NCBI RefSeq assembly: GCF_037042905.1 | Contig: NC_087251.1 | Coordinates: 28,522,001 to 28,586,000 of the forward strand | Source: Lytechinus pictus | Taxonomy: Eukaryota | Direction of reading: 5' to 3' | Length of the DNA: 64,000 nt | Shown: one piece after another, positions 23,701 through 50,700 of the stretch | Layout: each line of letters starts with the position of its first letter | Numbering within the stretch: the first letter of the stretch is position 1 | Position numbers and translations under genes: made by a program | Notes under the pieces: model-generated | Told to the model about the DNA's origin: nothing | Database searches by the model: none | What the model saw: only the letters and a program-made list of their open reading frames with translations

Positions 23701-26700
23701 GCGTATGATTCAAAATTTAAAAAAAAATCTGTTAAAAGAGAAACATTGTGATATGGTAATCTTCTTGGTCTATTTCACTTCATGAATACCCTGTAAGAAG
23801 AGATTAAATCTATGGTTAATGTACCAATCTGAAATCTATGTAACTTGTCATGAATTTTAGATTCATTATGAACTTTCTATAATTTGAGCAAGAAAGTCTA
23901 ATGATTTCTAATTGTCTTACATGTAGTAGTCATCATTGTTCTGATTGCAATAATCTTTGATTTGATCATTTAATTATCATTTGATCTTTTTCCTTACTAT
24001 TTTTATTCTCCAGGCACTACAAGAAGAGCTGAAAACTTTCCAGGACCAGTTAGAGCGCATGAACGAGGCTTGTCACCTTGTGCAGGCTGAAACTGGAGCC
24101 AGGAGTAAGCAGTTGATGCAACAGTCCCTTAACGATATCAATCAAAGACTCACCACCCTAGAGACAGAGGCTAGGCAAAGAGAACAACAGCTTGTAGAGA
24201 AGAACAGACAGTTCCAAGGCTTCCAGGTAAAGCTTTTTTATTTTCTTTCTCAAGATTTTGTTTAACTTTCTTTTTTCCCCATACCCAAAGACCCATAAGC
24301 TTACATTTAAGAATAATTATGTGGAGACAGTGGATTTTGCCCATCAACCTTTGAAAATATCCCTATGAGTAATCTGTTGGTCTGGAAACATTACAATTAC
24401 TGTAGAATTTGCCCCCCCCCCCCATGATTGGATGTGAAATCAAATGATGTTCTTCTCCATGTGCCTCTTGCTCCTCCTCCTCCTCCCCCTCCTCCTCCTC
24501 CTACCCCTCCTCCTTCTTCTCCTCCTCCCCCTCCTCCTCCCCCTCCTCCTCTTCCTCCTCTTCCTCCTCCCCTCCCCTTCCTCCTCCTCCCCCTCCTCTT
24601 CCTCCTCCTCCTCCTCCTCCTCCCCCTCCTCTTCCTCCTCCTCCCCCTCCTCCCCTCCTCCTCCCTCCCCCTTCTCCTCCTTCTCCTCCTCCTCATCCTA
24701 CTCCTCCTACTCCCCTCCTCCTCCTCCCCCCTCCTCCTCCTCCCCCTCCTTCTCCTCCTCCTCCCCCCTCCTCCTCCTCCCCCTCCTCCTCCCCCTCCTC
24801 CTCCCCCTCCCCCTCCCCCTCCTTCTCCTCATTCTCCTCCTCCTCCTCCTAGCCCTCCTCCTCCTCCCCCTCCTCCTCCTCCTCCTCCTCTTCCTCCTCC
24901 CCTCCCCTCCTCCTCCTCCCCCTCCTTCTCCTCCTCCTCCTCCTACCCCTCCTCCTCCCCCTCCTCCTCCCCCTCCTCCTCCTCCCCCTCCTTCTCCTCT
25001 TCTTCCTCCCCGCCCATTCCTCCAGCCCCTCCCCTTCCTCCTCCCCCTCCTCTTCCTCCTCTTCCTCCTCCCCCTCCCCCTCCTCCCCCTTCTCCTCCTC
25101 CTCATCCTCCTCCTCCTACTCCCCCCCCTCCTCCTCCCCCCTCCTCCTCCCCCCTCCTCCTCCCCCTCCTATCTCTGACTATCTTCTCTCTCTCTTTCTC
25201 TCTCTTCTTTCAAACAGACAAATAAATTGCTAATATTTTATATTGCATTACAAATTATGCAGAGAGCTCCAGCAATATGACTCGCTGCTCGTAAAACATT
25301 GCTGTTAGGAATTATAATGATGTCCACTTAGTTGAAGAAATGACTATTTACTTTGATATTTATATATTACAGAGAGACTTACAGAGCTTCCAGTTATGGC
25401 TAACCGGTGCTAAGGAACAACTGAACATCCCACCAAGCAATGTTAGTGGGGCTTCACTTGAAGATAATATCATTATCAACAAGGTAAATAAAACATTATA
25501 TACCATGTATTTTGTTAATAGATGATATGAATATTAAGGTAAATTAAAAAAACATTATTTACCACATACTTTGATACTAGGATATGATTTCAATATTAGC
25601 AAGATTATTATTTACCATGTATTTTCTTCTTATTTGGTTTAATGTATAATGTTTTTAAGTTTTGCATATAATTGTGAAAATACTGTGACACGTTTTTTGT
25701 AAATATGTAAACTATTTGGTCACTACTAAAGCGCAACTAAAGGGCTCAAATGAGTTATCCATGTAAGAAAAAATAAATGGAGCTTTGTTTTGTAAAGGCA
25801 TTAAAACTTGTTTTGCAAGGGAAACCAAATCAGTTTTAAGATTGCAATTTCTGCACAAGTTCAAACAAATCTCCAGCTCAATATTACCTGAATTTTAAAA
25901 GCGCAAGGTCAATCAGCATAACCTCTTTTAATGAATTATCTCTCATGTAACTGTAACTGCCTTCGTAAATAAACTTTTTGAAATGTGATTTGGCTGTAGA
26001 GACATTGCATAATTGTCACTCAGACAATGTTTTGGACATGGTTAACATTCCTCAGTAAACAGAGAAGATACACACTCAGTCATAAATGAAATCTGATGAC
26101 ACTGGTTGTAAGGTTGTAATGACAGTAGCTACATGTATTGGCGATAAGTCCATGTCTATACTCTCATTAACATTTCTTGTGATTAATCTCTGTACCTTCA
26201 CTCTCGTAGGAGGAAAGACTGAAGTTCCAGGTCAGGACCATTATTTCAGTTTCTTTGCTTCTCTTGCTGTCATTCCTTCTTGATAGATTTCTCTGTGCCT
26301 TTGATAGAAAAAGAAACACATTAGGCTTTTATGTAATTTACATGTATCAAGCAAACAAACTCCTGTCTGCATCGTTCTATGCAGTGCGCACATTTGAAGA
26401 ATTTGTTAAAAGTTTCAGTACAGAATTGTTTGCAAGGTGGCGGTCATCTGTCTCATACTTTTTTCTGTTATTTGTTTGAATGTCAATTTTCTATTTCTTA
26501 CAAGTTTTGTTATCAATCACTAATTCCTGATTTCATCTCCAAAGGGTCTTTTTTTTTCACCTGAAGATCTGGAGGTGGTCACAGTAACATAAACATGATT
26601 AATAATCCCAAATATATATCTTTGATTTGATTCAGTTGATGAATTCGAGTAGTGGTTCATTATCATGGGAAAATATATATGGGTCAGTCAGTGGCCATAT

Positions 26701-29700
26701 TTACCGTCTTATGCAAAAGTTTAAGACCAATCAAGCAGTTACACCAAATTAGACCAGTCAAGTGATATGTCATTTTCTAATTTACTATGTGGAGTCATGT
26801 GAGGATCAAGCGCAACCTAATCATGTGACCAGGTTAGACCCTGCTTGGCCAGGCCAGAAGAAAGACCATGATTTTAGTCTGTGGTTTGTCTATTGTTTAT
26901 TAGTGGTGCAGGAAATTAGTCATGATGTCATCATATAGGAAAAATCTGATTGGCTAAAATGATCAAAATCGCAGGAGGATTTGACATGTCAAATGTTTTT
27001 TGGTCCTCGGACCTTTGTATAATGTATTTGTGTTTTTATACCGTATAAATAAAATAAAATAAAGATTTGTTCTGCGATTTTTCTGCAACAAGTCGGTCGC
27101 AGCGTTGCATATTTTGGCTGGGCTTAAGCTTGTAATGTAGTATACAGCATAGGCAGAACGGGAAAAATGTTGCAGTTTGTAGAGCAACCAATGGGACAGT
27201 GTTGCCTCATCCCCCCCCCCCCCCCGCCCCACACATCCTGCTTTGACTTGCAACTTTCACAACAAAGTCACAGCTTACATTTACATACCAAAGATTTAGA
27301 ACATTTTTTTTACGGAGGTGAAAATTAGTAAAGGACAAATTAAATTTTATTTAAAGCTATCTCACTGGAAGTGTATGGAATTAAAATTCTGGAAAAATTT
27401 AGTAAAATGAGCTGCCGGGACTTGTCATGCTATGCAGAATATCTCAGATTAGCAAAAGACACCTGACAAATTGGTGTATGTCATCGTTTGTAATCCTGCT
27501 ATATAGCAAGAAGCTTGATATTCCCTGCTTATCACTAATACCCCAAGATTTCATTCCATCTTCCTCCTGATTGTAATTGCCCCTCCTTCAACACTCTGCT
27601 TTTGCTTCCTGCATGTCTTTATGTTTCCTTATGAAGGAAAGTTTCTTTGTATCTACATGTATGGGTATGCAGATAGGTCTACCTGTCACCACTTTTCTAA
27701 AGCTTTTTGTATTAAAGTTAAGAGCAGCTTTAAAGGGATGGTCCGGGCTTAAAATATTTATAACTTAATACGTAGAGTAGAATTCACTGAGCAAAATGCC
27801 GAAAATTTCATCAAAATCGGATAACAAATAATAAAGTTATTGAAGTTTAAAGTTTAGCAATATTTTGTGAAAACAGTCGTCATGAATATTCATTAGGTGG
27901 GCTGATGATGTCACATCTCCACTTTCCGTTTTCTTATGTTATTACATAAAATCATAATTTTTTCATTATTTCATACTTGTGTGAATAATATGTCTCCCTT
28001 GTAATGAAATACGTTGCAGCAATAAATATCTAATGTACTAAATCAGTTGTCAATCCAATTTTTCTAGTTCTTGGAGGAAAAAATTTGAATAAACCTAATT
28101 TCATATAATAAAATGCAAAAGAACAAGTGGGATGTGACATCATCATCCCACCTAATGAATATTCATGACGACTGTTTTAACAAAATATTGCTAAATTTTA
28201 AAATTAAATAACTTTGTTATTTGTTATCCGATTTTGATGAAATTTTCTACATTTTGCTCAGTGAATTCTACTCTATTTATTAAGCTATAAATACTTTCAG
28301 CCCGGACCATCCCTTTAAGAACGTGGTGAACTTTTCATATGCTCTAAATAATCACCAATGAACATTTAATGGTCGATATCATTTACCACAAGAAAGGATC
28401 ACCAGTCGTTCTTAAAGTCGCTCTTAACTTACGCTCAGCTTTATGAAACGGCCCCAGTTAATCAGTTGTTTCATACACTTTCTTTGTCATTCTTTTTTCC
28501 CCTTTCTTCCTTTTCTATTTCTCATCATCCCTGTCTGTATTCCAAAGTGCCAGTCCCCCTATCTCTCCCTTTCTCTCTCTTTCTTACTCTTTCTTGCTAT
28601 CTCCTGATCGTTTCCTTTCTCCCTTTCCCTCACTACATTAATCTCCCTCTCTCTCTCCCTTCATCTTTCTTTCTTACTCTTTCTCACTATATATCTCTCT
28701 CTCTCCCCTGCTCTTTTCCTTTCTCCCTTTCCCTCTCTACATTAATCTCCCTCTCTCTCTCCCTTCATCTTTCTTTCTTACTCTTTCTCACTATATATCT
28801 CTCTCTCTCCCCTGCTCTTTTCCTTTCTCCCTTTCCCTCTCTACATTAATCTCCCTCTCTCTCTCCCTTCATCTCCTCTCGTTCTGTATCTTTCTACTCA
28901 CCTCTGTTTCCCTCCTATCACATAAATCAACAATGTATGTACAGTTTAGTTTCTGCCACAATTCTACCTTTTCTTGCTGTTTAAGCTTTATTTGTTTGGC
29001 TGTTCTTGTTATTTATATACACTTATTAATTTTTTCTTATTTGATTTTTTTTTTATCTGCTTTAAACCTGTATTCTGTAGATGGAATCTCTTTGAAAAGG
29101 AAATAGGATGAGGGTTGTATGGAACTTGGTTTTTATTATTGTTTGATCTTTCTTTGTTGTGGGTGCTATACATCTCAGCAAAAATATATTCACACAAGTT
29201 ATTATGTTTATGGTGCATAACCATCGTGAATTAGTGAAAAGGCAAGGTGCATCTATTTCAGCATCTTATAGGGAGAATGATATTGTATTTTGCAGATCTG
29301 AATATACAGTACATGTAGTATAGCTGACTTTGTATTAGTGCATACATACATTCTCCCAAGTGATAATCAAAACATACATTTTGTAATCCTCAAATACTTG
29401 GCTTTGATACTTCAGAAAACAATATTTTTGTGTGTGATGAGGATAATGATACTCCCATCTGAAAGACTAGATGGCTCAGAAGTATGACGTTCAATGATCA
29501 ATAGATGAATAGATTTGGATTCAAAACCCCAATACTACTGCAATAATCATGCATGTACCCTCTACCAAGTCCCTTGGATAGGGGTTAGAGATTGCAGGTC
29601 GTCTTATCTATCCACTCATTTACTCTTTCTGTAGATAAACATCTACACCGTCATGAAATATCTGCATAGTACATGCATTGTATGTACTGAATATTTCATG

Positions 29701-32700
29701 GTGGGTTTTTCCACTATTAAAACCATCATGGTCATTCTCTTTCTGAGTGATACAAATAGAAATTTATAAGTACAATAAAATCCCATTAGGACAATGAGAC
29801 AAATTTCTGCTTTGAAACATACATTGATTACGTGATCTGGGTGAGCCCTGTAGGTAATCTTTGGTAAGTTAAAAAATTTTGTTAGGAAGTAAATGTTTAT
29901 TGACCCATTATTAGGTCCTATGTATGAGATAAACTGAGCATGAGTAATGTATATTGGAAATGTGCAATATACTGAAATCAGTGATGATCAATATGTCGAT
30001 TTTGTTTTTGCTTGCAACAGGTCTTAGAAAGTGAGGCAAACGGGTGTGAGGTGAAGTACAGGGATCTGGTACAGAAAGGAGAAGACCTCTTAGCTCTAGA
30101 TCCTCATCTTCCAGGTATCGCACATGATATCAAGACCTTACAGGACAACTGGGAGGAGCTTCAGAGGTTGCTGGGCAACCGACGTAATCAACTCAACACT
30201 GCCAAGATATTGCAGGTCAGCGATGTGAAGTTCACTTTTTTTTTTCTTTTTACTGATTTATCTTTTTTTCAGAACACTCCCTTATGAAATGGTGCTTAGG
30301 GGTATGAATGGCTTTTTGACTACTCAATGAAACTTTGTACACCACCTCACATGGTCGTGCATTTCTCTTTTCCCTCCTTCTGACATCATATATTTCATTC
30401 TTTAGACTGTTCACTGTATAATAAACAGACAGAAAGTCTTATGTGATTGTAGTTACTACTGCGGGGTTTTTTAGTATGACTAGAAATTTATGTTACATAT
30501 TTAGTCGTGTTAAATGCAAATTTGATACATGAAATCAGTTAGTAGGACTCATAGTTATGGTTATAGGAATAGAAGAATATGATTCTTTAACAATACAGCT
30601 GAAAATTCTGCCTGCTGTCACAAATAGGAAATTTCTAGAAGACTTCTTTTTTAAAGACTAGTGCCAATAATGATAATAATAATTCAAATAATATGCAACA
30701 TTTCTATAGGGCTAAATACTATTGTTGTAAGCAATGAAAGATATGTAAATGATTAAAGATGTTCGTCTTTTTTATTTCATTGATTACTAGGAACAATATC
30801 ACAAGATCCTAAAAGACTACATGGAGTTCCTTGACACAGCTGAGAGGAAGCTACAGAATAAAAACATCTCAGCTACTGATGTGAATGATCTTCATCAACA
30901 ACTCCAAAAGCACAAGGTAAAATATACACCCTTCCTGTATTAAATCTTGGTCCTGTCTCACAAGTAGTTGTGATTGATCCAATCAGATGCAACTATGGAT
31001 TGAAATCAGTATTGTAATTCTTCATCTAGGAAATGTATGCTCTATAACTTTGTTTTAAACAAGGAGGAGGATTTTGATTGGTCAGAACAATGATGAATGC
31101 ATAGATGTTCATCATATATGTATCATATCATATTATGTGGAGTGTTGTGGCCTAGTGGATTAGTCTCCAGACTTTGAAACAGAGGGTCGTTTTTGTCTCG
31201 CCTGCATAGCAGAGCGAGACTATAGGCGCCGCTTTTCCGACGGCGACGGCGGCGGCGGCGTCAACATCAAATCTTAACCTAAGGTTAAGTTTTTTAAATG
31301 ACATCATAACTTAGAAAGTATATGGACCTAGTTCATGAAACTTGGACATAAGGTTAATCAAGTATTACTGAACATCCTGCCTCAGTTTCAGGTCACATGA
31401 CCAAGGTCAAAGGTCATTTAGGGTCAATGAACTTAGACCATGTTGGTAAAATTATTTTCAAAATCTTAACCAAAGGTTAAGTTTTTGAAATGACATCATA
31501 ACTTAGAAAGTATATGGACCTAGTTCATGAAACTTGGGCATAAGGTTAACCAAGTATTAGTGAACATCCTGCTCGAGTTTCAGGTCACATGACCAAGGTC
31601 AAAGGTCATTTAGGGTCAATGAACTTTGGTCAAGTTGGGGGTATTTTTTGAATTACTATCATAAATTTAAAAATTTATGGATCTAGTTCATGAAACTTGG
31701 ACATAAGGTTAATCAAGTATTAGTGAACATCCTGCTCGAGTTTCAGGTCACATGACCAAGGTCAAAGGTCATTTAGGGTCAATGAACTTTGGTCAAGTTT
31801 GGGGTATTTGTTGAATTACTATCATAACTTTGAAAATTTATGGATCTAGTTCATGAAACTTGGACATTAGGTTAATCAAGTACCTCTAAATATCCTGTGC
31901 GAGTTTCAGGTCACATGACCATGGTCAATAGTCATTTAAGGTCAATGAACTTTGGCCAGGTTGGGGGTATTTGTTGAATTACTATCATAACTTTAAAAAT
32001 TTATGGATCTAGTTCATGAAACTTGGACATAAGGTTAATCAAGTATTAGTGAACATCCTGCCAGAGTTTCAGGTCACATGACCATAGTCAAAGGTCATTT
32101 AAGGTCAATGAACTTTGGCCGTGTTGGGGGTATTTGTTGAATTACTATCCTAACTCTGAAAGTTTATTGATCTATTTCATGAAACTTGGACATAAGGTTA
32201 ATCAAGTATTACTGAACATCCTGCCTCAGTTTCAGGTCACATGACCAAGGTCAAAGGTCATTTAGGGTCAATGAACTTAGACCATGTTGGTAAAATTATT
32301 TTCAAAATCTTAACCAAAGGTTAAGTTTTTGAAATGACATCATAACTTAGAAAGTATATGGACCTAGTTCATGAAACTTGGGCATAAGGTTAACCAAGTA
32401 TTAGTGAACATCCTGCTCGAGTTTCAGGTCACATGACCAAGGTCAAAGGTCATTTAGGGTCAATGAACTTTGGTCAAGTTGGGGGTATTTTTTGAATTAC
32501 TATCATAAATTTAAAAATTTATGGATCTAGTTCATGAAACTTGGACATAAGGTTAATCAAGTATTAGTGAACATCCTGCTCGAGTTTCAGGTCACATGAC
32601 CAAGGTCAAAGGTCATTTAGGGTCAATGAACTTTGGTCAAGTTTGGGGTATTTGTTGAATTACTATCATAACTTTGAAAATTTATGGATCTAGTTCATGA

Positions 32701-35700
32701 AACTTGGACATTAGGTTAATCAAGTACCTCTAAATATCCTGTGCGAGTTTCAGGTCACATGACCATGGTCAATAGTCATTTAAGGTCAATGAACTTTGGC
32801 CAAGTTGGGGGTATTTGTTGAATTACTATCATAACTTTAAAAATTTATGGATCTAGTTCATGAAACTTGGACATAAGGTTAATCAAGTATTAGTGAACAT
32901 CCTGCCAGAGTTTCAGGTCACATGACCATAGTCAAAGGTCATTTAAGGTCAATGAACTTTGGCCGTGTTGGGGGTATTTGTTGAATTACTATCCTAACTC
33001 TGAAAGTTTATTGATCTATTTCATAAAACTTGGGATATAAGAGTAATCAAGTATCACTGAACATCCTGTACGAGTTTCAGGTCATAAAACCAAGGTCAAA
33101 GGTCAGTTAAGGTCAATAAACTTAGGCCATGTTGGAGTAATTGTTGAATTGCCATCATAACTTTGAAAGTTCATGGATAGAGTGAATGAAATGTGGGCAT
33201 GGGTGTAGTTGACAAGTCTTAAGTCACCGTTCAAATGTCATCTATGGTCAATAAACGTGGTATTATGTCATTATATGAATGGTATTTTTGTGAATGATTA
33301 TTTTATAGTAGTTTTCAAAGTTAGCACTGCTGCTATATTAAATAGCGTAATGCAGGTGAGTCTGCCAGAGGCGTTCCACTTGTTTCTAATCCCAGCCACG
33401 GCGTAATTTCCTTTGGCAAGAAATTTCTCCACATTGTGCTGCACTCGACCCGGGTGAGGTGAGTGGGTACCCGGTAGGATTTATTCTTTGAACGCTTTAA
33501 GTCCCTCTTATGGGTGCTCAGCTACAGCCGGGGTAATAATATGATACCAAGTATCAAAGCGCAGTGGTGTATATGCACATAGTAACTGCGCTACTAAGTA
33601 TATTAATGGACTTATTATTATTATATATAGTAGAGAACATTGTGAAAGGATTTATGCGTTTGAGGTGACAATGTCATTGACCTTCTATGCATTATGATTT
33701 GTGATACATTCCATAACCTAAAAACCTAGTCTTCTTGTTGTATACAGTCCTTTGATACTTGTAGTTCTTCTTGGATATATTTGACAGACATATAATGGTT
33801 TTTGTATATTTAACGTACATGTAGATGTACGAGGCATAATATAGTGGATTTTAGAATAGGAATACATTTGCAATTACTGGTTGATTATTTCATAAATCAA
33901 TTAACTGACCTCAGTGTCATTCTTCAGTGACCTGGCCACTCATCATATCTTTGTATGGAAAGCATTTCCAATTATTGGTTGATTATTTGATATATTAATT
34001 GCTTGAGTGATTTGAATTTGATATAGGAATTCTTCAGTGACCTGGACACCCACCACATCCTGATAGAATCTATCGCTCAGAAAGCCGACCCGTTCACCCA
34101 GCAACTCTTCCATACCCAACGGTCAGAGCTTGACCGTCGCAGCCAAGCCATCACAGTTCAGTCCGCAGAGCGAGGCCAGACCTTGGAGGGATTGGTCAGC
34201 GAGTGGCGTGACCTTGATAAAAGTCTTACAGCGTTGAGTAGTTGGCTCGGTCACGTTGAAGCTCAGGTACCAAGTGGGATCAATGATGATACTCAGGAAA
34301 ATGTGCAGAAAGCCATTCATAAATACCAGGTAATGTTCCAATCACATTGTTAAAGTGAATCGGAGTAAAGCACAAAGTCACAATTACAATACATAATTCA
34401 TCCCTGCTGATTACCAACTTCAAAATTCAAAATGCATGTATATTTGTATTTCCTGCAGATTGTTAGTTATTTCGTTTGCTTGAATCCTGTCGGTATTTTC
34501 AATGATCCACCTCAACCCTCACTGAGTCACAAAAAGGGCACAGCTTACGCACATGTATTATGAAATGCACAAATGCCATTTCTATGTTTTTAAAGTTGAA
34601 TAAGGCCAAACTTTAACCGTTCATTATCTTATTGTATTGTATTCTTAACTTCAATCAATTTCATTTGAAAGTGACTAACCAAATTACTATTTTTTTTTTT
34701 ATTTCCAGGCAATGAAAGGACTACTTGAGGGCAAACAACCGTCGCTGCATCAGATAGAGTCCAGTGCCCAGGTTCTTCTTCAAAGCCTCACGTCACCACA
34801 GCTGGACAAGCGTCTGGCTTCACTCCATGACCAGTGGTCATCGGTCAATCAACGGGTCAAGCACGACCTAGCCTCCTGGACAGCTCTCTTGGAGGAGTGG
34901 AGAATGTTTGAAGAGGAGTCCTCTGAGCTGATACCTTGGTTGAGGAATGTTACTGATCACATGGCTACATTTAAGGATAAGGATCACACCACAAAACCTA
35001 TCTCAGATCAACTTGAAGAGTTCTCTGTAAGTAAAGCTCTCAATCTTTCATTTTGTAAAATTGCCATTTTATCATTTCAGCAGTATTTTTATGTCTAATA
35101 GATGGCTATGGGACGTTCAATAAAGTGAAAGACTCCCCATAAAAAATGGGGGAATCTATTCTGATTTTGGTGGCAGCGGTGGGATTATTCCTCACTAATG
35201 AAATTGTTTTCTCACTCAAATGTGATCTGATCAATATGTTATTACTTAAATGTAATGATTTTGTAGAATCCCTTAGCTTTATCGAAATGCCCTGGATGAA
35301 CAAACATGTCAGTGAAACAAAATCTACTTGTGCCAAATAATGTTGAATACTGGAAAGTTTTTTATAATTATATACAATATCAGAAATAAGTGTGTTTGTA
35401 CTTTACGATTCTGTGAATGACTGTGTTACAACTAATGATTGGAGCATATGCATTTGGTAAAAGCAAATGCTACTATTGTATTGATGTGATAAGTTAATCA
35501 CCCAAAGTTGAGAGATGTAATTCTTACCTCTGGCCAAATCAAGTACAATTTCATCCTGCTTTGATGAGTATTTCTGTGAATTAATGATTATGAATTTTTG
35601 TTTAAATTTTACAGAAACTTCAAAAAGATATAGAAACCCACACACCTCAGAAGGTATCAACAAGCAACCATGGCAATCATCTATTGAAATTGAAGCAGCT

Positions 35701-38700
35701 CAACACCCCTCCAATCAGGGAGAAGCTATCATGCATCGAGTCCCATTGGACAGACATTCAAAATGAACTACCTCAGCTCCAGGAAGACTTGCATCAATCT
35801 CAGGTTGGTTCTGACTTCCTAATTCCATGAATACTTATGTCTGTTTCCAGCTTGCTTAGTAAACTGTATTTTCGTGATGTTATTCTGCATCCAGATGCTT
35901 TATTCAGAAAAGGGAATTATTCAAAACAAAATCTTAAAACTATATACTACATACATTTTGGTTAGATAAAGTCAGTTGGGTAGATGGTAAGTTTTGTTGA
36001 CTTATATTACACAGGTAGTTTTCAGTTTGAATATTCATGGTGCTATTGTATTGTAATCATATGGTCATATCTTTTTTTATATACCTCCTTATGATTCTAC
36101 CATTCCCAAATAGCTTAGAGAATTAAATATGATTTGCACTGCTGCAATATTGAGTGTTAATATAATGTGATATTCAAAGCTGTATTCTTGTCAGAAATTC
36201 TGGATAAGTACCTTCATTTGTGAATCATTACTTGAGAATCCAGAGTTTGGCGAAAAGCAAATGTTGGATTGGGAAAGTCTCGCAAACTTGGTGGTATCAT
36301 CTTCTTATTGGATCCCACAGAAGAACAACATTATTTGGGTCTAGGAGGGCTATACAGTCAATTTTATTTGAGAAGGAATGGATAAATGAATAAAATAGAA
36401 ATGTTCTTCTTGTTGCAGATGGAGTTGCTACCTTCAAGACAAGCATTGAGTGAATTAATGCTATGGATGGATAATCTAGAATCAGCATTAGATTCCTACA
36501 AACATGAAATATTCACAAGCAGCGATGATGTAGAAGATGCCGTACAAGTGTACAAGGTATGTAGCCATTGACTAGAGCCTGTGCATTAGAAACGGAAGTA
36601 GGAGCCTCTTTCTAAATGATTACTTGCTGTGACAGAAAGTTGAAATTAAATGCATCTTCAGTAATCATGCAATTTCGATTTTCAACAAAGCAGAAGTGAG
36701 CATTTGAGACATCTTCTTCTTTTTTTTAGTTGAGTTCAAATGCAAATTTTTCTCCTTGTGTACAACATCCCGCATTAACATAATTCCAAACACCTTGCTG
36801 TTCTACACAGGGGTCAAGTCAATTAATTTGATATAAAAATCAATTCAAATCAAAATCAAGACTGGAAATTTGTCATAGCTCTCAAAGAAAGAAAAAAAAA
36901 TCAACTCAAAGGCATTGACCATTATTATCCTATCCTTTGCATTCTTGACACACACAGAATATGTTTCACTGTTAGTTTAACCTTTAAAACATTAATTTTT
37001 TGTCTCGCCTGCATAGCAGAGCGAGACTATAGGCGCCGCTTTTCCGACGGCGACGGCGTCAACGGCGTCAACATCAAATCTTAACCTAAGGTTAAGTTTT
37101 TGAAATGACATCATAACTTAGAAAGTCTATGGACCTAGTTCATGAAACTTGGACATAAGGTTAATCAAGTATTACTGAACATCCTGCCTGACTTTCAGGT
37201 CACATGACCAAGGTCAAAGGTCATTTAGGGTCAATGAACTTTCACCTTGTTGGGAGAATTATTTTCAAAATCTTAACCAAAGGTTAAGTTTTTGAAATGA
37301 CATCATAACTTAGAAAGTATATGGACCTAGTTCATGAAACTTGGGCATAAGGTTAATCAAGTATAAGTGAACATCCTGCTCGAGTTTCAGGTCACGTGAC
37401 CAAGGTCAAAGGTCATTTAGGGTCAATGAACTTTGGCAAAGTTGGGGGTATTTGTTGAATTACCATCATAACTTTGAAAATTTATGGATCTAGTTCATGA
37501 AACTTAGACATTAGGTTAATTAAGTACCACTGAATATCCTGTGCGAGTTTCAGGTCACATGACCATGGTCAAAGGTCATTAAAGGTCAATGAACTTTGGC
37601 CGTGTTGGGGGTATTTGTTGAATTACCATCCTAACTCTGAAAGTTTATGGATCTAGTTCATAAAACTTGGGATATAAGAGTAATCAAGTATCACTGAACA
37701 TCCCCTGTGAGTTTCAGGTCACAAAACCAAGGTCAAAGGTCAGTTAAGGTCAATAAACTTAGGCCATGTTGGGGTAATTGCTGAATTGCCATCATAACTT
37801 TGAAAGTTTATAGATAGAGTGAATGAAATGTGGACATGGGTGTAGTTGACAAGTCTTAAGTCACCGTTCAAATGTCATTTATGGTCAATGAACGTGGTAT
37901 TATGTCATTATATGAATGGTGTTTTTGTGAATGATTATTTTATAGTAGTTTTCAAAGTTAGCACTGCTGCTATATTAAATCGCGTAATGCAGGCGAGACT
38001 GCCAGAGGCGTTCCACTTGTTTAATTATCAAATCGCCATTATTTTTTCCAAACCACCTTTGAAAATATTTCAGCAGCCTTTGATAATATACAGGATAAAA
38101 ATTAACTGAAAGCAGAGATGGTAACAAAATAACAAAAGTGAGATGTAATAAAATAGGAGAATTTTGTACATTTTAAATGTCCACATTCTAAGTTTATATT
38201 CAAATGTATTGACTCTTGATAATTTGTTATCTTTGTACAGGGTTATAAGGTCGACTTGTCATGTCATCTTCTGACCGTTGAGTTTGTCAACCAATCCATT
38301 CTTCAAATGAGTCAGGACATTGAGAGTCGGAGAGGAGATAAAACAGACTTTGCTGAAAAACTTGGTACCATGAACCAGAGGTGGCAGGTATGAATTGAAA
38401 TATTATCATTTCAGGGGAGCATTTCATGAAATAAATAGGATACAAATAATGCATGTATGCGCATGCATGTAGGGCCAAATAATGAACGATGTGCAAGAAG
38501 AGCCAATGGATATAACCGCACCGAGGTCCGCAGGACTGAGTGCGGTATATCCATTTGGCGAGTCGAGCACAGAGTTCTTTATTTAGGTCCTCTATGCACA
38601 AGAATGCGTGCATTGTTTTGTTTCATACAACCCCCAATGTTACTGAGTTGCCTTGAATGCTGATCTAAATACTAGATCTAGTCTGCGCTGCCAAGCTGAT

Positions 38701-41700
38701 CATTACGTACGTCACGCCACGGTGCAGACCTCGCACTATCCTGCACTCTGACGTCAGAGTGCAGGACTGTACATTTGGTATGACATCTGAGTGCAGGATA
38801 GTGCATTTTGGATGCCATAGTGTAATTCGCTGAATATCGTGTAATCTGATTTGGACCAATCAGATTACAGAACATTCTTGGGAGTTGTATAATCAGTGAC
38901 TTTTACTGAAAAATTTTATAAGCTACTGCAAATCCTTGCATCTGATTGGCTCAGATAAATTAGTCTATGTACTCCCCTGATCCTTGTAGGATAGACTACT
39001 AGTATCTTCTAAGGAGGTTATCTGTACAGTGGGGTTCCTGTAATAGACTTATGTGATGTAGATTTGCTTTGATACACATACATTTTATAAAACAATGGGA
39101 AATGTGTTGTATGATAATCCTTTTATTTTTTCCTAGCAGCATATGTATGTTAAGGATTTTGTAAAGAAATCTGGATTGAGAAACAAGATTTTTTTTTTTG
39201 CAGTTCAGGACTCAAGCTTTTATTACTCAATAATGCTCTTGAAAATTTTCCGTAATATCCTTGATGATTGTAATATTTATATCCTAAAGAGTATAAATAT
39301 AGGATTATGCTGGAATGTCTACAGTACTACAGAGTGGATAAATCAATTTATAGATGATCATTCATAAAAGTCTGAAACCCAAATATTTGATATTACAGGC
39401 CTTGAACGGAAGAGTTGGTGAAGAGACTAAAGTACTGGAACTCCTCCTTCAGCGCTGGAAGACCTTCAACAAACAGGTCACAGAGACCAATAATGCACTG
39501 AAAGATCAGGAGGACAAAATTAAACTCTTTGATGGACCCATCGGCAGAGAGGCCAGTGTTAAAGAGGCACTTCGTACCTGTCAGGTATGTATACTCACTT
39601 TTATAACCATTTCTCTTGTCATTATCATTTTAGAAAGAGTTGTAGTAGAGGTGGTCATGAAAATGTTGATGAGGCTGAATACAATTACAATTGTTGTAGT
39701 TAACAGACTTTTATGACAAAAATAATGAAGATGAAAATCATACTAATAGTTTTGATGATGCAAATGATGATGAAGGTAAGGACGATTTTGGTGGTGGTAA
39801 TGATGGTAATGATGATCTGTGATATGTCAATCTTGTTTATAATAGTTCCAATGTATTATAGTTAAGTTAGGAGATATCCCAGCATGTTTATATTCCATTT
39901 CTTTGGGGGGAAGTGAATGTTATGCCTAACTGTGAGTATCATTGTCATGTCCTGCAATAACAGGCTATTGAGGAGCACATCAAGAGCAAAGCCAGCGAGC
40001 TTCATAAACTGAAGGCCACAGCCCACTCCCTTACCTCGGACCAAGACTCCATCAAGAAAACCCTCCAGCCACTGGTTAATCGTCAGACTGCCCTCCAACG
40101 TCTGGTCAAGCACCTGAAAGCTGACCAGGTCACTGCCTTGGAGCAGTGGTCTCTCTACCAAGAGACACTGACCGCTGTCCAGCAAGCACTCGGCAAGGCA
40201 GAGTACACCCTAAGCAGAGGGAATGTTGTCATGGGCACAGTGGAATCTCTCCAAGTCCAAACTACTAAACTCAGGGTAGGTTCCGATCATGTTTTTAAAC
40301 CCTGCTTAGTGCTTGCTTAGATGCCCAGTCATATACTGCTGTCCAGCAATACTGTCTGAGAAGCAATTGGGTCTGTGAAAATCTCTCACTGCTCGCATAA
40401 AACACTCTCCCATATGTGATAGGGTCATTAGCCACCAAACTAAATATGGTTTAGTGATGGTGTGTTGTTCTGCTCAAGCAATATTGGTAAAATTTATTAT
40501 TCTATTGTCCTGCATTTTGCTATTAGTGTTGTTTGCAAGATATTAAATATGAATATGTGGAATAGATTTTATGCAATGATATGTGAAGGATGGCTATCTA
40601 ATGAAATTCAAATTGAATGCTCTTTCTTTTATTTTTGGAATGGTTTTATTTGATGTGTCAAATTTTTGCATTGTGTACCTCCTATTCATTCATTATAAGA
40701 ATAATTCTATTTAAAATAAAAGATTTGCGACGTGATTTGTGTGAGAAGATAATACATTGCACTGCGTGCGCCCAGCTTTATATCATGAACTCTGTTGTCA
40801 AATACGTAAATTGTATGGCTTAATGTATATTATTTTGCTTTATTTATATCATTATGTTACCCTTGTTATCACTTTCCCCTACCCATTCATGGAATATCAC
40901 AGGAATTCCTATCATTAAAGGTGACCTTCTCTAATAATTTGAATGCAGTTCACTCTTCCAGTTGTATTTCTTCTGGTATTTCATTATTGCTGATGATATC
41001 TTCCTTTTCTGACTTTAATCATTGCTAATCCCAATTTCTGTAACAAAGACTTGACATTTCCTTTCGCTGCCAATCTTGTTTGAGGTGTGTGATGCAGTTA
41101 GAAAGCCATAGTTTCACAGGATAAAAATTATGCTGATGGCTGCATTTAAAAAAATGAAAATTAAATGTAAAAAATGATGCAATCTTTGCTTCTTCCAACT
41201 GAAAGAATTAAGTTATTTTTGATTGACTTTTGTCTATTTAAAAGATACTCCACATTAATTTTTGAGGAATATATGTCAACCTAACAGTATTATATATTTA
41301 CAAAGATATTAGCGTATGTCGATACTTACATAAATTACTGCACGTTATTCAATTTGCTGTGATCCTACAAATTTTTAATTGTTTTGCTGTGCATTTTTAA
41401 AGTATCTCTTGCATTTTTTCAATAGCAAGATTTTGTGAAATTTGTCAAGAATATCATCAGCTCTTGTATATGCACTAGAAACTGTGTCTGTTTCAAAATA
41501 AAATTATCAAATGATACTTAAGCCTAATACAACCCTCCCTATACAGTGCGTCCCATAAAAAAGGAAACCCATTTTCAAAGATAGATTTCACAATTATTAA
41601 ACATGTTTTTACTATGAACTTAGCGAATCTTTCAAGCATGGCAGATTACTAACAATAAATTTTTAGGCCTATCAGAAACGATTTCTGCAGTAACTCACAT

Positions 41701-44700
41701 GTCGGATTCCACTGTCATTTCAGGGATCAGTGACAAAGAATACAAAAGAAATGCTAATGAGCCAATCATCGAATGAGCAAGGTTGTTGCACCACGAATCA
41801 ATTTTGTTCAATATTCTGCGCAACCTGATTTTTGACATCAAAATTTCAAACTTGTCTAGCTCATCAGTAATACGTGAAGTGTTGGTCACATAATTGGTAT
41901 AAAAATGTAGGGGAATAATTGAATTGTATGATGGTGTTAATGAAAAATCCTAATTTGTCTTTGAAGAAAAAAGTGGGAATCCTGGTTTCCTTTTTTGTGG
42001 GATGCACTTTAGAACTACTACAAGATGCCCATATCAATATGCAGGGTTATGTGAATATCCAATAGTGTTGAAAGGAGTTTTTTAATAAAAAGCTTGATAA
42101 TAACATTCTCTTTTCTTTGTTTATATCATAGGGAGTACAATTAGAATTGAGATCTAGCATTGGCCAGCTAAACACTCTTTGTAAGCTAGCTGACCAGTTA
42201 CAAGGGACATGCATTCCAGAGATCAGGGAGGAGCTTGGCAAAACAGTCCAGAACATTTCCTCAAGGTATTCACCTCTTTCTTAGTTTTATATATTGATAA
42301 TAATAATAATACTAGCTGGATTTATATAGCACTTTTTTCATACGATTCCTTTTCCCTTGGCTCGAGCTGCCACTTCTTCAGCAGTGCTTAGGAGCATACA
42401 TTCAATACAATTGTCTTATAAAAAAACTTGTTACAAGGGATATATGTACTATAACTCATCACTGTTTGGTCTCATTACACCAATGATAATTTTCGTGGAA
42501 TCATTTTGATTGGCTTTTCAGCATTTAACTGTGATAGTTAATAAATTGCAGAGTTGAACTAGCTATGGTAAATTTAACAAGAGGTCTCGGGTTCTCTATG
42601 AAAGAGTACAAGAGCTTGATGTCATTAGTTGCTTTTTGTGCATTTTGAGAAAAAGCACAGCGCCCCTGCGTACACCAGATGCCAGGTGTTGTTATACCTG
42701 TCACGGCAGAATGCTAAAAGAATTTTATCAAAAGATTGTGAAGTCCTACTGCTTTTTTTATTTTGATAGGTGGAGCAAAGCAGAAGATGAGCTCAGGTCC
42801 AACATCAATTTATTTGAGAAGGCCACATTGCTATGGCAACAGTTTGAAGACAGACACAGTGAGATTGAGCAGTTCCTTGAAGACAAGGAGACCTTGAGCA
42901 AGGAGTGCATGCAGGGAACGAAAGAAGATGAGAAAGTATTGGCTGGTAAGGAGACGGAAGAAGGAGCAACGGAAGAAGAGATGGAGCAGGAGAGGATAGA
43001 GAGATGCACAAAATGTCAGGTATGAGAGTCTCTTTAATCAACTATACTTATATTATTTTGTTCAAGTTTAGCCCATCTCACATGATACAATCTGACTGAG
43101 CTGCAACCACTGAGTGAGATGGGAGAAAGGACATGCAATGCACATCTCGCTTTTAGACTACTCTTTTATTTGTGTTGATATTAAATCATGTAATACTGCA
43201 AAATGCAGTACCATTTGATCTGGTTGTAGAGATTGGCTTTCCCAAATCTGTCCTATTATCTAATGATATATAATTAAGTAGTAAGTTTACGGTTGTATTT
43301 TCTAATCTTTACTATATATACTATACTACTGCTGACTTGTTTTTCCTTTCTCTTACAGGAGATCCTTGTTGATGTTGAAAGCTACCCTGTAGCAACTGGT
43401 CTAGGAACCCTAGTCAATCAGCTTGTCAGATACATGGACTCTAGTACATCAAGCAATATCACCTCAAGGACCAAAGTACTACAACAGGTCAGTGGCTTGT
43501 TTATTTATCACCATTAACAGCAATCTGATTGTAACAATGTCTTAATTTTGCAATGGCAAATTTTACTTCTTGGCCCCTTGTTACTTATCGTTGCGATGAT
43601 CCGATCAGCCTCAACTATAATATGTGACCTACCCCCCCCCCCCCCCCACCCACCAATAAGTCACCAGGTAAGGTTCTCTGTATTGGTTATTGTTGGTCAA
43701 TTTCAACCTATTATATATCATTTTAAAGGTTAGGAAATGAATTTTCAAGCTCAATAAAAATCGCAATATTCATTTTGGTCGACTTAATGTTGGTTTGGGG
43801 TGGCAAGTCACATTTTATTATGGAAATCCATTGTTTCAGATTTGGCATTTCCATAGTTGTGGTTGATCAGATCAATTGCAACTCTTTGTAAGATGGGGCA
43901 CAGGACTATGTTTTTTCATATACTGTATCTCATTTATCCACTTTGATTCAATTCATGTTACTGTCATATACAGAATAAATGTCTGGCTATCTTATTGTCA
44001 TGTTTATTTATGTTTTATGCCCCCAGCGTCTAGACACCTTACAGCAGTCACTACAAAGACACATCAAGATGGAGGAAATAGACATCCAGAATCAGAGACA
44101 GTTCCGGGAGAAGACCAAGACATTACTAGAATGGCTCGAGGAAGTCAAAGACACCCTCAACATGGAAGAACCTAATAGATCCTCAGATGAACATACTATC
44201 AAAGACAGGATGGATAAACTCAAGGTAAGTTGTGTGAGCTTAAAATTTCTAAATAAGATAAACCAGGTTCGTTGACGCATTGGTTTGAGAAGGATTGGAA
44301 ATATGAAAGAACAACACTGATTCGTTAGATGTCGGTATTTTGAAGAAAATGCTCAAGCCACGATCCTGATTGCCTTTGCCATTTAGCATTTGATAACAAT
44401 CTTTTGTGTCATATGGCTCAGAACATTCAGACAAAGGATTAAAATTGAAAGATGTTGAAAGAATCAACCTGAGACAATGTTCATGGTTGTTATTGCTATT
44501 GCTATTGAACTGATGTGTTTCATTTCATCTGAAGGCTAAGAGTCGTTTCTTGACATTGACAGTCCAGGAAAAGACCAATTGATCTACTCTCAGAGAGTAA
44601 GAGATGAAAATGAAACACATATTTGTTTCATGCAAATTTGTGTGTCCTTTTGGGGGAGGCAATCATCGCCTAAAGCATTCTAATTCAAAGCTAAAAAGTG

Positions 44701-47700: not shown

Positions 47701-50700
47701 AAGTATTCATCATTAATTTGATCAGTAGTATCAGGTGAAGTTAGGGCTTAATAATTCCTTTATTGTTTGATATTTATTGCATAATTAATGTTGCTTTATT
47801 TGTCCTTGAATGTACAGGAGACAGAGAATGGTTTTGGTAACACTAAGGGTAAGCTTGAAATCCTGTACCAGAGGGAGAGTCAGTTGTGCCCCTCAGTCAG
47901 TCCTGATGACATGTCTGTCCTCCATGAGCGCATTGTCCTTCTAACTAAACAGCTTGATGAAGTACACCATCAGGTCTGTCAACGTAAACAGCGAATCACA
48001 GACAAGCTTAATGAATGGACAGCTTTCACTGATAAATATAAGGAATTCTCTGATTGGCTGACTGAGATGGAGATGAAGGTGTCACAAAATGGAGAGAACA
48101 GCATTGAAGATCTGCTTCAGAGGCTTCAAGGGGTGAGTTCTCTTCATTTTTAAAATTGTTTTTATGAAGAGTTTTATCCCAAAAAGCAAAGCTCTTTCCA
48201 ATTTGATAACTTCTAATAAGAAAACTTTTTTATCACATTTCATTCACGCATCTCTCAGGGAGTGACATTAGATGGTTCAGTTTTATTTTCAAAATTTTAG
48301 GTTGAAAGTAAAGAATACTTAAAATTGATTGATTAAAATAGATTTATTACATTCTACCATTCAACTCTTCAAATGTTGGAGGAAGAAACATTACTCTTTT
48401 GTCGTTTTATTTAAAGAAACTGATATTAGGGGCCAAAAGAGACATTTTAAATACATATCATATGCTTGGAGTGTAGATTTGATGATCAATTAGCAATAAT
48501 TCTCCTTTTGCTGATATTTTATGATTTTGTTCTAGGAAATCATTTTTAAGATTTGCAAATTACCCTTTCATAAAAAGTCAATTCTTGCCAGCTTTGTCCT
48601 AAATTTTTGAATATTTGTGTAATTTTTCACAAATATAAATACCCACATCATAAAATAGATTTGATGCCTCCTGGGACCCGTTTCATAAAAACTTTCGCCG
48701 TAAAAAACTCTGGCAAATTTTTTGCCAAGAGTTTTTTAAATTGAAGGTTTTTTGCCAGAGTATTTTAACGTGTAAATTTTCAATGGCATAATTTTGTTTG
48801 CCAGAGTTTTTGTTTAATTTGCCAGAGATTTTTTATGGCAAAAGTTTTATGCAACGGGTCCCTAGTTTAATAGATTCAAGATTCATATTTGTTGGATATA
48901 ATATTTTTGTCAACAGAGGGAGTACTTGCAAAAGATATATGCATGGTTATGTTGTGCTGCATAAAGTCACTGCATTGTCTACTTTTAGAAAATTAATTCA
49001 GTCATTCTTGCTAATTGCAGTAACAAGTAAATTCTATGAAAATACAAATGTTCTTTGCCTCTTTATGTATATGTATATTTATCATATCAAATTTCAAGTC
49101 ATTTAAAAGTATCAAAATAATTAAATTGTTTGGATGTTTTTAAACACAATACCAATTATGTAACCTTTAATATTATTCAATTTATTCACGCATAATTCTT
49201 ATTTTATTATTGGTAATGTTTATCTTTCATCGCCATATGTAAAAAAAGATATTCCTGTAGTATATTTTGCATTCAGAGCTGATAAGAAATGTAAGCATAA
49301 TGCTACCTCCCAGTACCTGACAAACCAATTTAATCCATTATGTAACTATACTTCACAAAACAAAGAGAGGAGTAGAGAGATATATACAGATAGAGAGATG
49401 TGGGAAATGGTGAGGGAAAGAGAGATAGAGATAGGGAAATAGAAAGAGAGGTGGTGAGAGAGAGAGAGAGAGAGAGAGAGATAACAACTTGGTTAAGTAA
49501 TCCTGATAAAAAAGTATACTTGATACAGAATTATTCATGGTAGCTACAGTACCAGCAGTAGTGCATATTAGTATTATACAATGGATAACCCATTCATGAT
49601 GTGAAGAAGGTTTATTTTCAAACTGAATTTGAAGTGGAATTATAGGTCTATTCACCACTGCATGTTTTTGTAAATAAGTTATGTAATCCTGATGATTGTA
49701 CTTGAGACAGAATTCTTCACAGTTGCAATAGAATTGCCAGCAGTATTGCCATAGGGTTTGTTATCACTCTGAATTTGAAGACAAATTTCAGTTCTCACCA
49801 TGCACTGCATGCTTGCTGTAATGATACCAAGATAGTCATGCAATTGATTCATAAAAGTCAAACTTTTATTTTCGTCTTTGGTAATATAACAACTCCTATT
49901 CCATCTTTAAATTGCTCTATGGACAGTTCAGCATGTTGAATGATGTACGACTTCTTGAAGTAAGTTATAATATTCAAAGATTTTAGAGCAATATTTGAAC
50001 ATATATTGAGAGAGGGGGTAAAGGGGAAAGAGAAAGGGAGTATGGTTTTCAACAAATTTATTCATTCCATTTTGTTTACTAATTTCAACGATTCTTTATC
50101 GTCCTTTTTCAAGTATATTACTGACAATATAAGTGATCATCAAAAATTTGTAAATCAAATTGAATAAAAATTTGTTAGAAAAGGCTTACCCATTCTGACA
50201 GACATGGTACTTTCTCTTCATTTAAATCTGACTTGTAATCTTTGCTCTTAAAACTTTTGCTCTTAATTATTCTGTGTGTTTTAGTGATAAGTTGTCATGG
50301 TGAACTTTTTCACACCTGCCACTTTTTCGTCATTAATGAGTTCATGATAGTTGCATTAGTCTAGGGTTTGTAGTATGTTTCAGCAAGGCCTAGTTTCAAC
50401 AAATATGATGGATATTGTCTCAATCAAATTTTACAACCGCAAAATGAAGATGGAGTTACGTTTTATATGTAGTTTCAGTTTATTTGACATTATTTTAATA
50501 TAGTCTCAAAATTTAATCCTAATTCTAAATAAGAACTAGTATTTGTATGATGTTATTTATCAAGTTTTCTCAAAGAATTTGAGATGGAAACATCTTGATT
50601 TATTTTATAGCCTTATTAATTATCATTTGTCATTGACAACGATTCATCCTGGTCCAAAGACTTTCTAAACATAAAATCTCACTGCCAGCATTCATTTGAA

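What the first reader, a model, noticed from the sequence alone, without database searches (positions are those of the whole stretch)
31330..33130. Transposon tandem array is a multimer of chained nuclear-receptor response elements
Seen: the 163-bp unit typically contains AGGTCA ca TGACCA AGGTCA a AGGTCA ttta GGGTCA a TGAACT. That is an inverted repeat (IR2), a perfect DR1, a DR4 and an IR1 overlapping within about 44 bp. Some units carry single-base variants. There are 11 units here and 4 more at about 37140-37800. Established: RGGTCA half-sites in DR1 (RXR/COUP-TF/HNF4/PPAR), DR4 (TR/LXR) and IR1 (FXR/EcR) geometry are canonical elements. Inference: a rolling-circle-type element is spreading variable-copy, potentially hormone-responsive enhancer or silencer cassettes, or recruiting host receptors for its own benefit.
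Basis: partly seen in the sequence, partly recalled or inferred. Interest (0 to 1): 0.7.

Follow-up and report, generated by a model that had tools for sequence, protein, structure and literature searches.

The report
Jumping repeat carrying receptor-like DNA sites
The array is the variable middle of a common non-coding rolling-circle jumping element in an animal intron, and its cluster of AGGTCA nuclear-receptor-type sites also recurs in unrelated elements of the same kind, which hints that such elements recruit a host receptor, although nothing here shows a hormone response.

Summary
In detail: 11 + 4 units, each with an AGGTCA cluster, far above chance. The arrays are the central repeats of two copies (31190-33384, 36997-38021) of a high-copy non-autonomous Helentron (HINE/DINE-1 type), both sense in introns of a spectrin-repeat, nesprin-like gene.

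Corrections: the 11 units are (5 x 2) + 1 after an 844-bp duplication. The full chain is in 8 of 15 units. The IR2 is never canonical and is the most variable half-site family-wide. Half-sites vary somewhat less than the rest of the unit, mostly not significantly.

New: a DR1 (often plus DR0) core, frequently with an AAA(C/T)TTG box about 60 bp upstream, recurs at 150-180-bp spacing in otherwise unalignable repeats. Seven of these have HINE ends with other subTIRs. A DR0 version sits in oyster Cg_HINE_6, though apparently in only 1 of 13 oyster clusters. DR4, IR1 and IR2 are not shared.

Best reading: a conserved protein-binding module, probably for orphan DR0/DR1 receptors (COUP-TF/TR2-4/HNF4/RXR class), not a multi-hormone cassette. 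Binding is untested, and slippage makes the same string in bacteria. Unexplained: family RNA is 54-115-fold one-stranded in one stranded run.

The parts
31190..33384 (+). Element copy E1: non-autonomous Helentron (HINE/DINE-1-like), 11 central units
   Evidence: Ends defined by alignment with E2; T-run at the 5' end, CTTGTT at the 3' end
31195..31220 (+). E1 5' subterminal repeat (GTCTCGCCTGCAT, 31195-31207) with nested short inverted repeat forming a hairpin
   Evidence: Identical to E2; the E2 copy folds at -11.1 kcal/mol, z -5.8
31238..31262 (+). E1 (GAC/GGC)n microsatellite
   Evidence: Sequence; length varies by multiples of 3 in reads laid on E2 (table 4)
31269..33178 (+). E1 central tandem array: ordered unit types A-E twice, then F; periods 192/163
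   Evidence: TRF, anchors, 844-bp duplication with 1 mismatch over 31332-32180
31337..31345 (+). Box A (GAAACTTGG) of unit 1, about 68 bp upstream of the DR1 core; present with small changes in all units aligned
   Evidence: a positional match in other families
31390..31433 (+). Half-site cluster of unit 1: AGGTCA-ca-TGACCA-AGGTCA-a-AGGTCA-ttta-GGGTCA-a-TGAACT (DR1 at 31404-31416)
33350..33384 (+). E1 3' subterminal repeat (33350-33362, 2 mismatches to the 5' arm) and 3' end
36997..38021 (+). Element copy E2: same family, 4 central units (37076-37837); half-site clusters from 37197, 37389, 37552, 37716
   Evidence: reads leave the reference sharply at 36997 into mixed flanks (table 7)
37002..37014 (+). 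E2 5' subTIR
   Evidence: 13 nt, 100% complementary to 37987-37999 (I10)
37987..37999 (+). E2 3' subTIR, 22 nt from the end; followed by only a 3-4-bp stem and CTTGTT
   Evidence: fold z -0.12
37752..37757 (+). AATAAA in the terminal unit type F (also 33115 and 33250 in E1): possible poly(A) signal on the transcribed strand
   Evidence: use not tested
31137..33600 (+). tRNA-type SINE-like repeat split by E1 (about 31137-31189 and 33385-33600), insertion in its B-box-like motif
   Evidence: Read by eye against recalled pol III box consensus; no Rfam match; inference
30917..34026 (+). Host intron holding E1 (E2 lies in the intron at about 36557-38240) of a + strand spectrin-repeat, nesprin-1-like gene
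   Evidence: Splice sites read by eye; 7 of 7 exon ORFs scanned hit Spectrin or Spectrin_SYNE1, all below the curated cut-offs

Best explanation
SHOWN: the arrays are the central repeats of a high-copy non-autonomous Helentron (HINE). Its unit has two modules, an AAA(C/T)TTG box and, about 50-70 bp downstream, a run of direct AGGTCA repeats. The same layout recurs in other HINE-type families whose units are otherwise unalignable to this one. INFERRED: an autonomous Helentron Rep/helicase moves the element by its ends, and unit number changes by slippage or unequal exchange. The DR0/DR1 core is kept because a host double-stranded-DNA-binding protein binds it, most plausibly a ligand-independent NR2-class receptor (COUP-TF, TR2/TR4, HNF4, RXR), and this favours copying or tolerance of the element through chromatin state or recombination and repair recruitment. 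DR4, IR1 and IR2 are family-specific by-products of slippage and local palindromes. Effects on neighbouring genes would be occasional side effects, not the rule. Confidence in the HINE identity is about 0.95; the figure given is for the whole statement, receptor-driven conservation included.
For: HINE anatomy: against the definition in PMC4067079 (passages) and PMC7492417 (parts 1-4 of 7). Features not in the search pattern: GTCY microsatellite upstream in 31 of 120 loci, 9 of 50 clusters; credible subTIR pairs, unlike ours, in 7 loci of 3 clusters (L059, L074, L092, L093, L103, L152, L154); box A at -78..-58 in a cluster-weighted 6.6 of 50 against 0.1-1.3 in five control windows; extra AGGTCA at +13 in 33 of 100. 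In cluster 0 adjacent units are near shuffled identity outside the motif (0.39-0.66 against 0.49). The oyster Cg_HINE_6 unit, found independently of my pattern, carries DR0 clusters (871 + 805 string hits). Opposite polarity relative to the microsatellite in 6 of 120 loci and in L179 suits an orientation-independent duplex binder. Family-wide reads: none of the 40 listed variants lies in the 24 direct-half-site positions; the 49-bp block has 1 of 49 variable against 11 of 84 outside, p 0.027. COUP-TFII/TR4 bind A/GGGTCA direct repeats and recruit FANCD2/MUS81 at ALT telomeres (PMC6785246, passages).
Against: No binding data. In-window tests are weak: 8 of 36 half-site columns vary against 36 of 96 others (p 0.07); among E1 types alone p 0.25; three of the unit variants break the DR1. 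In one search, 86 lower-ranked variants were not shown and direct half-sites alone give p 0.08. The metagenome set was selected for DR1, so the core itself is circular there; the hosts are unidentified and probably few; 89 of 120 loci show no upstream GTCY microsatellite, and box A is absent from cluster 2 (0 of 8) and most singletons. No scrambled-motif control could be run in that collection. The DR0 string appears in only 1 of 13 oyster clusters (all 805 of one string span CL6 rows first to last; places 1-27 and 796-824 of 871 seen for the other), so HINEs spread well without it. The same string arises without nuclear receptors: heptamer microsatellites in bacterial genomes and an intergenic cluster in phage-like L052.
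Confidence: 0.42

Rival explanations
1. Neutral cargo: one ancestral GGTCA word was amplified by slippage into a degenerate 6-10-bp microsatellite inside the unit, is inherited from an old unit ancestor, and has no selected binding partner. Receptors may bind incidentally.
For: 10-nt slippage deletion between half-sites in reads (2114 at depth 26453 in X24); weak conservation statistics; pure heptamer runs of the same word in bacteria; absent from most oyster clusters.
Against: The core stays exact while neighbouring unit types decay to near-random identity. It keeps a fixed distance to box A across families with different subTIRs.
Confidence: 0.25
2. The two boxes are iteron-like or hairpin signals read by the element's own machinery (Helentron Rep/helicase or another captured protein) during single-strand replication. 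The likeness to receptor sites is coincidence.
For: The 56-nt block folds as ssDNA into two hairpins, z -3.0, which explains the 'inverted' half-sites. Conserved palindromes and low-variability segments are reported in clam DTC84 and Pearl core repeats (PMC3879986, passages). A similar string lies intergenic beside an AAA_25 gene in phage-like L052.
Against: Families with different subTIRs, hence probably different partners, share the core. Both polarities occur. The inverted halves needed for hairpins are the least shared part.
Confidence: 0.2
3. One reading: the element spreads variable-copy, hormone-responsive enhancer or silencer cassettes built for several receptors (DR1, DR4, IR1, IR2), and hosts use them.
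For: DR4 and IR1 are each present in 13 of 15 units. Precedent: Helitron-borne heat-shock elements rewire genes in Caenorhabditis (PMC6927752, abstract and passages). An oyster TR binds DR0-DR5 in EMSA (PMC4692385, passages).
Against: IR2 is never canonical and is the most variable site; DR4 is deletable; neither is shared across families. Spacer rules are recalled from vertebrate receptors; the oyster TR lacks that specificity and did not respond to T4, T3 or TRIAC. No evidence for a ligand response.
Confidence: 0.13

Closest known systems
HINE / DINE-1 non-autonomous Helentrons (PMC4067079, passages)
   Same: 13-bp subTIRs, nested 5' inverted repeat, microsatellite, central repeats, T-rich ends with no target duplication, no coding capacity
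   Different: The 3' stem-loop is only 3-4 bp here; no autonomous partner found; no receptor-type motif in the passages read
Cg_HINE elements of Crassostrea gigas, especially Cg_HINE_6 / CL6 (PMC7492417, parts 1-4 of 7 and supplement searches)
   Same: 140-180-bp central units, few per element, inserted in genes and in other repeats; the CL6 unit carries clustered GGTCA direct repeats
   Different: CL6 has DR0 (DR1 string 0-1 hits in the array file), a 146-bp unit and different ends; the parts read do not remark on the motif; the DR0 string was not seen in the other 12 clusters
Pearl / DTC84 / Tsp tandem-repeat MITE-like elements (PMC3879986, passages)
   Same: Ordered array of unit variants with fixed positions and variable number; segments of low variability in the unit
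   Different: The conserved segment there is a 12-nt palindrome, not a direct-repeat half-site run
Caenorhabditis Helitrons carrying heat-shock elements (PMC6927752, PMC6765114; abstract and passages)
   Same: Rolling-circle elements carrying many copies of one host transcription-factor site
   Different: Binding and gene activation were shown there and are confined to one genus; here the factor is inferred and the motif recurs in unrelated families
COUP-TFII/TR4 on GGGTCA variant repeats of ALT telomeres (PMC6785246, passages)
   Same: Arrays of A/GGGTCA direct repeats as a platform for orphan receptors acting on recombination rather than hormone signalling
   Different: Human cancer telomeres, 6-bp period, not a transposon; a functional analogy only

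Membership tests
HINE/DINE-1 | 11-15-bp subterminal inverted repeats | tested here: met
   13 nt, 100% in E2; 2 mismatches in E1
HINE/DINE-1 | Short inverted repeat nested with the 5' subTIR | tested here: met
   Hairpin -11.1 kcal/mol, 0 of 200 shuffles as good
HINE/DINE-1 | Microsatellite after the left module | tested here: met
   (GAC/GGC)n, length-variable
HINE/DINE-1 | Central tandem repeats of variable number | tested here: met
   11 against 4 units; go-back joints in reads
HINE/DINE-1 | 3' palindrome or stem-loop after the 3' subTIR | tested here: inconclusive
   Only a 3-4-bp stem, z -0.12; the 3' subTIR is 22 nt from the end, shorter than the 38-60 given for mite HINEs
HINE/DINE-1 | T-rich/TT insertion without target-site duplication | tested here: inconclusive
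   Both copies have T-runs at both ends and no duplication visible; T-rich mixed flanks in reads; no empty site was available
HINE/DINE-1 | Interspersed, high copy, non-coding | tested here: met
   45,394 contig records of run X4 laid on one unit; element depth about 1e6 against 38-179 in the flank, not a copy number; no ORF of 100 aa in either copy
HINE/DINE-1 | Autonomous Helentron with matching ends | not testable with these tools
   No genome held for this window
Nuclear-receptor response element | Paired RGKTCA half-sites in a canonical geometry | tested here: met
   DR1 10 of 15, DR4 13 of 15, IR1 13 of 15 units; strict IR2 0 of 15. The geometry-to-receptor assignments are recalled.
Nuclear-receptor response element | Half-sites conserved above background | tested here: inconclusive
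   p 0.03-0.26 depending on the set; read-based block p 0.027, half-sites alone p 0.08-0.11
Nuclear-receptor response element | Receptor occupancy and transcriptional or ligand effect | not testable with these tools
   No ChIP, EMSA or reporter data available

The most novel reading that the evidence does not exclude
Many HINE families across distant marine animals share an old two-box central unit (AAA(C/T)TTG box, then about 60 bp, then an AGGTCA DR1/DR0 run, at nucleosome-sized period). The unit is kept because it docks host orphan nuclear receptors, which license copying or recombination of the element, a transposon counterpart of COUP-TF/TR4 at ALT telomeres. Such a family would scatter very many receptor platforms through the genome, and here it appears in RNA from essentially one strand.
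Probability: 0.25. Interest if true: 0.82.

Novelty: new variant of a known kind. Interest (0 to 1): 0.52.

Why it matters
Conserved segments in HINE/Pearl central repeats and their derived satellites have been noted without a named binding partner (PMC3879986, passages). A DR0/DR1 core gives a specific, cheaply testable candidate. If receptors do occupy it, a high-copy mobile family would be a large reservoir of receptor sites in marine invertebrate genomes: it could soak up receptor, seed new regulation, and confound motif-enrichment studies. If not, it is a useful warning that perfect DR1 clusters arise in repeats. The one-strand RNA is a separate lead about insertion orientation or RNA fate.

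Tried and rejected
No whole genome was held, so the genome-wide consensus test could not be run; reads laid on one unit were used instead. A broad DR0/DR1 pattern in viral contigs gave 55 loci, none a HINE by tandem and BLAST screen; only L052 and L055 aligned, at the motif alone. The strict pattern gave 1 viral locus. The genome-contig scan was meant as a negative control but gave 38 loci: 14 on short contigs of two assemblies that mostly look like HINE-type arrays of unknown host, and many of the rest simple heptamer runs, so it is not a clean control. My first control for box A (its reverse complement) was void because the box is near-palindromic; it was replaced by offset windows. The automated subTIR finders gave spurious pairs (19 rows; 8 of 31, of which L069, L118 and that L059 pair were rejected by eye); only 7 loci were accepted. 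Flank strand-skew as a proxy for sense insertion in other hosts showed nothing (T>A in 25 of 57, G>C in 30 of 57). Rfam: no match at E up to 1 in 30900-38300. The run finder listed no RNA holder on record. My recollection that the oyster Cg170-type unit carries the cluster was wrong: the DR0 strings map to CL6. Earlier findings of the scan: none by sequence, place or full words; 8 partial word hits concerned other elements. The host species was not determined.
Full report
1. Observation. Anchoring on the first half-site gives 11 units between 31390 and 33079 and four between 37197 and 37716, at 163/164 bp except three at 192 bp. RGGTCA-N-RGGTCA occurs 10 times in the window, all in these arrays, against 0.03 in shuffles. 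The arrays hold 53 RGGTCA on + and no TGACCY. The right half of the 'IR2' is TGACCA, so no unit has a strict IR2. DR1 is in 10 of 15 units, DR4 and IR1 in 13 of 15 each, and the full chain in 8 of 15. The stretch 31332-32180 recurs 844 bp on with one mismatch, so the long array is five ordered unit types twice plus a terminal type. The short array has four units in the same order of types.

2. What it is. Aligning the two loci shows shared sequence from a T-run to CTTGTT, 93-94% mean column identity at both ends, with unrelated flanks: E1 31190-33384 and E2 36997-38021. E2 has 13-nt perfect subterminal inverted repeats and a nested 5' hairpin (z -5.8), then a trinucleotide microsatellite, the array and a right module. 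This matches the DINE-1/HINE description in PMC4067079 (passages) and the oyster Cg_HINE elements in PMC7492417 (parts 1-4 of 7). The 3' stem-loop is weak (z -0.12), no empty site was available, and no autonomous partner could be sought because no genome is held. Both copies lie sense in introns of a + strand gene whose exon ORFs hit Spectrin or Spectrin_SYNE1 below curated cut-offs (7 of 7). E1 appears to split a tRNA-type SINE (by eye, recalled consensus; no Rfam match). The host is an animal; its lineage was not determined.

3. The family in reads. One unit with its 5' end and flank was laid against four runs. In DNA run X4, 45,394 contig records were laid, with depth about 1e6 on the element and 38-179 on the flank, so the family is very abundant (the tool warns this is no copy number). 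Of 126 variant rows 40 were shown. None lies in the 24 positions of the four direct half-sites or in TGAACT; one lies in the IR2 right half (37208 C>T, 28-41%). A 10-nt deletion at 37219, seen in both RNA runs, removes the DR4 and leaves a DR1. Over 37109-37241, leaving out one change private to the window copy (37192), the 49-bp block has 1 variable position against 11 of 84 outside (p 0.027); half-sites alone give p 0.08-0.11. Among ten non-duplicate window units, 8 of 36 half-site columns vary against 36 of 96 others (p 0.07); E1 alone gives p 0.25 and E2 direct sites p 0.03. So the direction favours constraint and the strength is modest; these are several overlapping cuts of small data.

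4. Other families. Only 2 align to our element, at the motif alone. With half-sites masked they fall into 50 clusters (37, 20, 4, 4, 3, 3, five pairs, 39 singletons). TRF sees an array over the match in 18 of 120, since neighbouring units are often diverged: in cluster 0 identity outside the motif is 0.39-0.66 against 0.49 shuffled. Features outside the pattern: a GTCY microsatellite upstream in 31 loci of 9 clusters, with the reverse arrangement in 6; credible subTIR pairs unlike ours in 7 loci of 3 clusters; an AAA(A/C/T)TT(G/T) box at -78..-58 in a cluster-weighted 6.6 of 50 against 0.1-1.3 in five control windows, 45 of 74 sites in cluster 0, 15 of 40 in cluster 1, 5 of 7 in cluster 3, 0 of 8 in cluster 2. 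Our unit has this box at -68, where its identity to clusters 0, 1 and 3 peaks (0.67). Extra half-sites are 227 on the same strand against 23 on the other, most often directly after the DR1 (33 of 100). The shared feature is thus a polarised DR1(+DR0) run, not DR4, IR1 or IR2. The hosts of these contigs are unknown and likely few, and the DR1 itself was selected for.

5. Independent case and limits. In the array file of PMC7492417 the DR0 string occurs 871 + 805 times, in cluster CL6 (Cg_HINE_6) in every row seen, and the DR1 string 0-1 times (places 1-27 and 796 on were seen). So about 1 of 13 oyster clusters has it: recurrent, not universal. The same word also forms heptamer runs in bacterial genomes (38 loci, of which 14 on short contigs of two assemblies look mostly like HINE-type arrays of unknown host) and an intergenic cluster in phage-like L052. 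Occurrence of the string alone therefore does not imply a receptor. The block also folds into two ssDNA hairpins (z -3.0), which accounts for the inverted halves without receptors.

6. Mechanism. Shown: HINE anatomy, high copy, two-box unit shared with other families. Inferred: mobilisation in trans by a Helentron, unit-number change by slippage, and retention of the direct-repeat core through binding of a host duplex-DNA protein. NR2-class orphan receptors are the best candidates because they bind A/GGGTCA direct repeats, and at ALT telomeres they recruit FANCD2 and MUS81 (PMC6785246, passages). That a transposon could use this is my extrapolation. I put this at 0.42, neutral slippage at 0.25, an element-encoded binder at 0.20 and a hormone-responsive multi-receptor cassette at 0.13. 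Against the last: the oyster TR binds DR0-DR5 loosely and did not respond to thyroid hormones (PMC4692385, passages). For it as precedent: Helitron-borne heat-shock elements (PMC6927752, abstract and passages; PMC6765114, passages).

7. RNA. In stranded total-RNA run X21 (about 6% read) 29,904 of 8,710,588 records were laid. First mates fall on - over + by 3277:61 at 37007 and 20997:183 at the motif, which in most libraries means RNA of the + (AGGTCA) strand. At the 5' end 2,136 reads run in from mixed flanks, and no start peak is listed. Randomly oriented intronic passengers should give both strands. Possible causes are sense-biased insertion, capture as 3' ends through the AATAAA in the last unit (37752), or loss of antisense RNA. 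This is one run of one of two coded organisms; X24 shows about equal strands (apparently unstranded); flank skew in other hosts' loci gave no sign of sense bias. It remains unexplained.

8. Literature. Searches pairing Helentron, Helitron or DINE-1 with AGGTCA or nuclear-receptor terms found no paper on this motif in central repeats (0 papers; listings only, none on the point by title and abstract start; 40 of 158 listed). PMC8268682 (passages) uses 'conserved boxes' for element ends. PMC3879986 (passages) reports ordered unit variants and low-variability segments without a binding partner. Figures, subscription journals and Repbase notes were not seen, and only one paper's supplements were searched, so absence from print is not established. 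Alu-borne DR elements and the Drosophila miranda ISX helitron are recalled precedents, not checked.

9. Verdict. Element: new member of a known kind. Recurrent receptor-type core in HINE units: a new variant worth testing. Hormone cassette: unsupported. Interest 0.52.

Noticed in passing
window 36997-37257 (reads of run X21): Family RNA is 54-115-fold biased to one strand and runs in from many different upstream flanks with no start peak; 0.34% of records read.
   Followed up: partly
window 31137-31189 and 33385-33600: A tRNA-type SINE-like repeat is split by element E1 inside its B-box-like motif (nested insertion).
   Followed up: partly
window 31332-33024: 844-bp tandem duplication with one mismatch inside E1: a very recent higher-order repeat or an assembly artefact.
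   Followed up: partly
window 27730-28318 and 61059-61663: Two long self-complementary (foldback/MITE-like) elements, 80% and 75% arm identity, about 66% alike to each other.
   Followed up: no
window 49380-50940 against 51763-53545: Local duplication in two blocks, 92% and 96% identical.
   Followed up: no
window 41538-42011 against 57367-58300: Inverted pair of dispersed repeat fragments, 67-74% identical.
   Followed up: no
window 24471-25170: 700-bp (CTC)n-type microsatellite that opens spurious long ORFs.
   Followed up: no
L050 1490-1700: A 208-kb viral contig has short tandem non-coding repeats carrying the same DR1+DR0 string, upstream of a Pox_VLTF3-like gene; possibly host-receptor sites in a large DNA virus.
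   Followed up: partly
L052 1440-1700 (L055 similar by BLAST): Phage-like contig with an intergenic cluster of the same word in direct and inverted copies between an AAA_25 gene and a glycosyl hydrolase 108 gene region; iteron-like, no receptor context.
   Followed up: partly
L179, L183, L184, L187, L190, L191, L197, L201, L203, L207, L208, L211-L213: Fourteen short contigs in two prokaryote assemblies carry this motif, most in 147-187-bp tandem units, some with HINE-type microsatellites: probably eukaryotic DNA of unknown host binned by error. In L179 the microsatellite lies downstream, the opposite polarity.
   Followed up: partly
PMC7492417 supplement file 2, cluster CL1 rows: The oyster CL1 (Cg170-type) unit has a TGAAACTTG box followed by a similar short motif at the same spacing as in our unit, by eye, though it lacks the direct-repeat cluster; hints at an older shared unit ancestor.
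   Followed up: no
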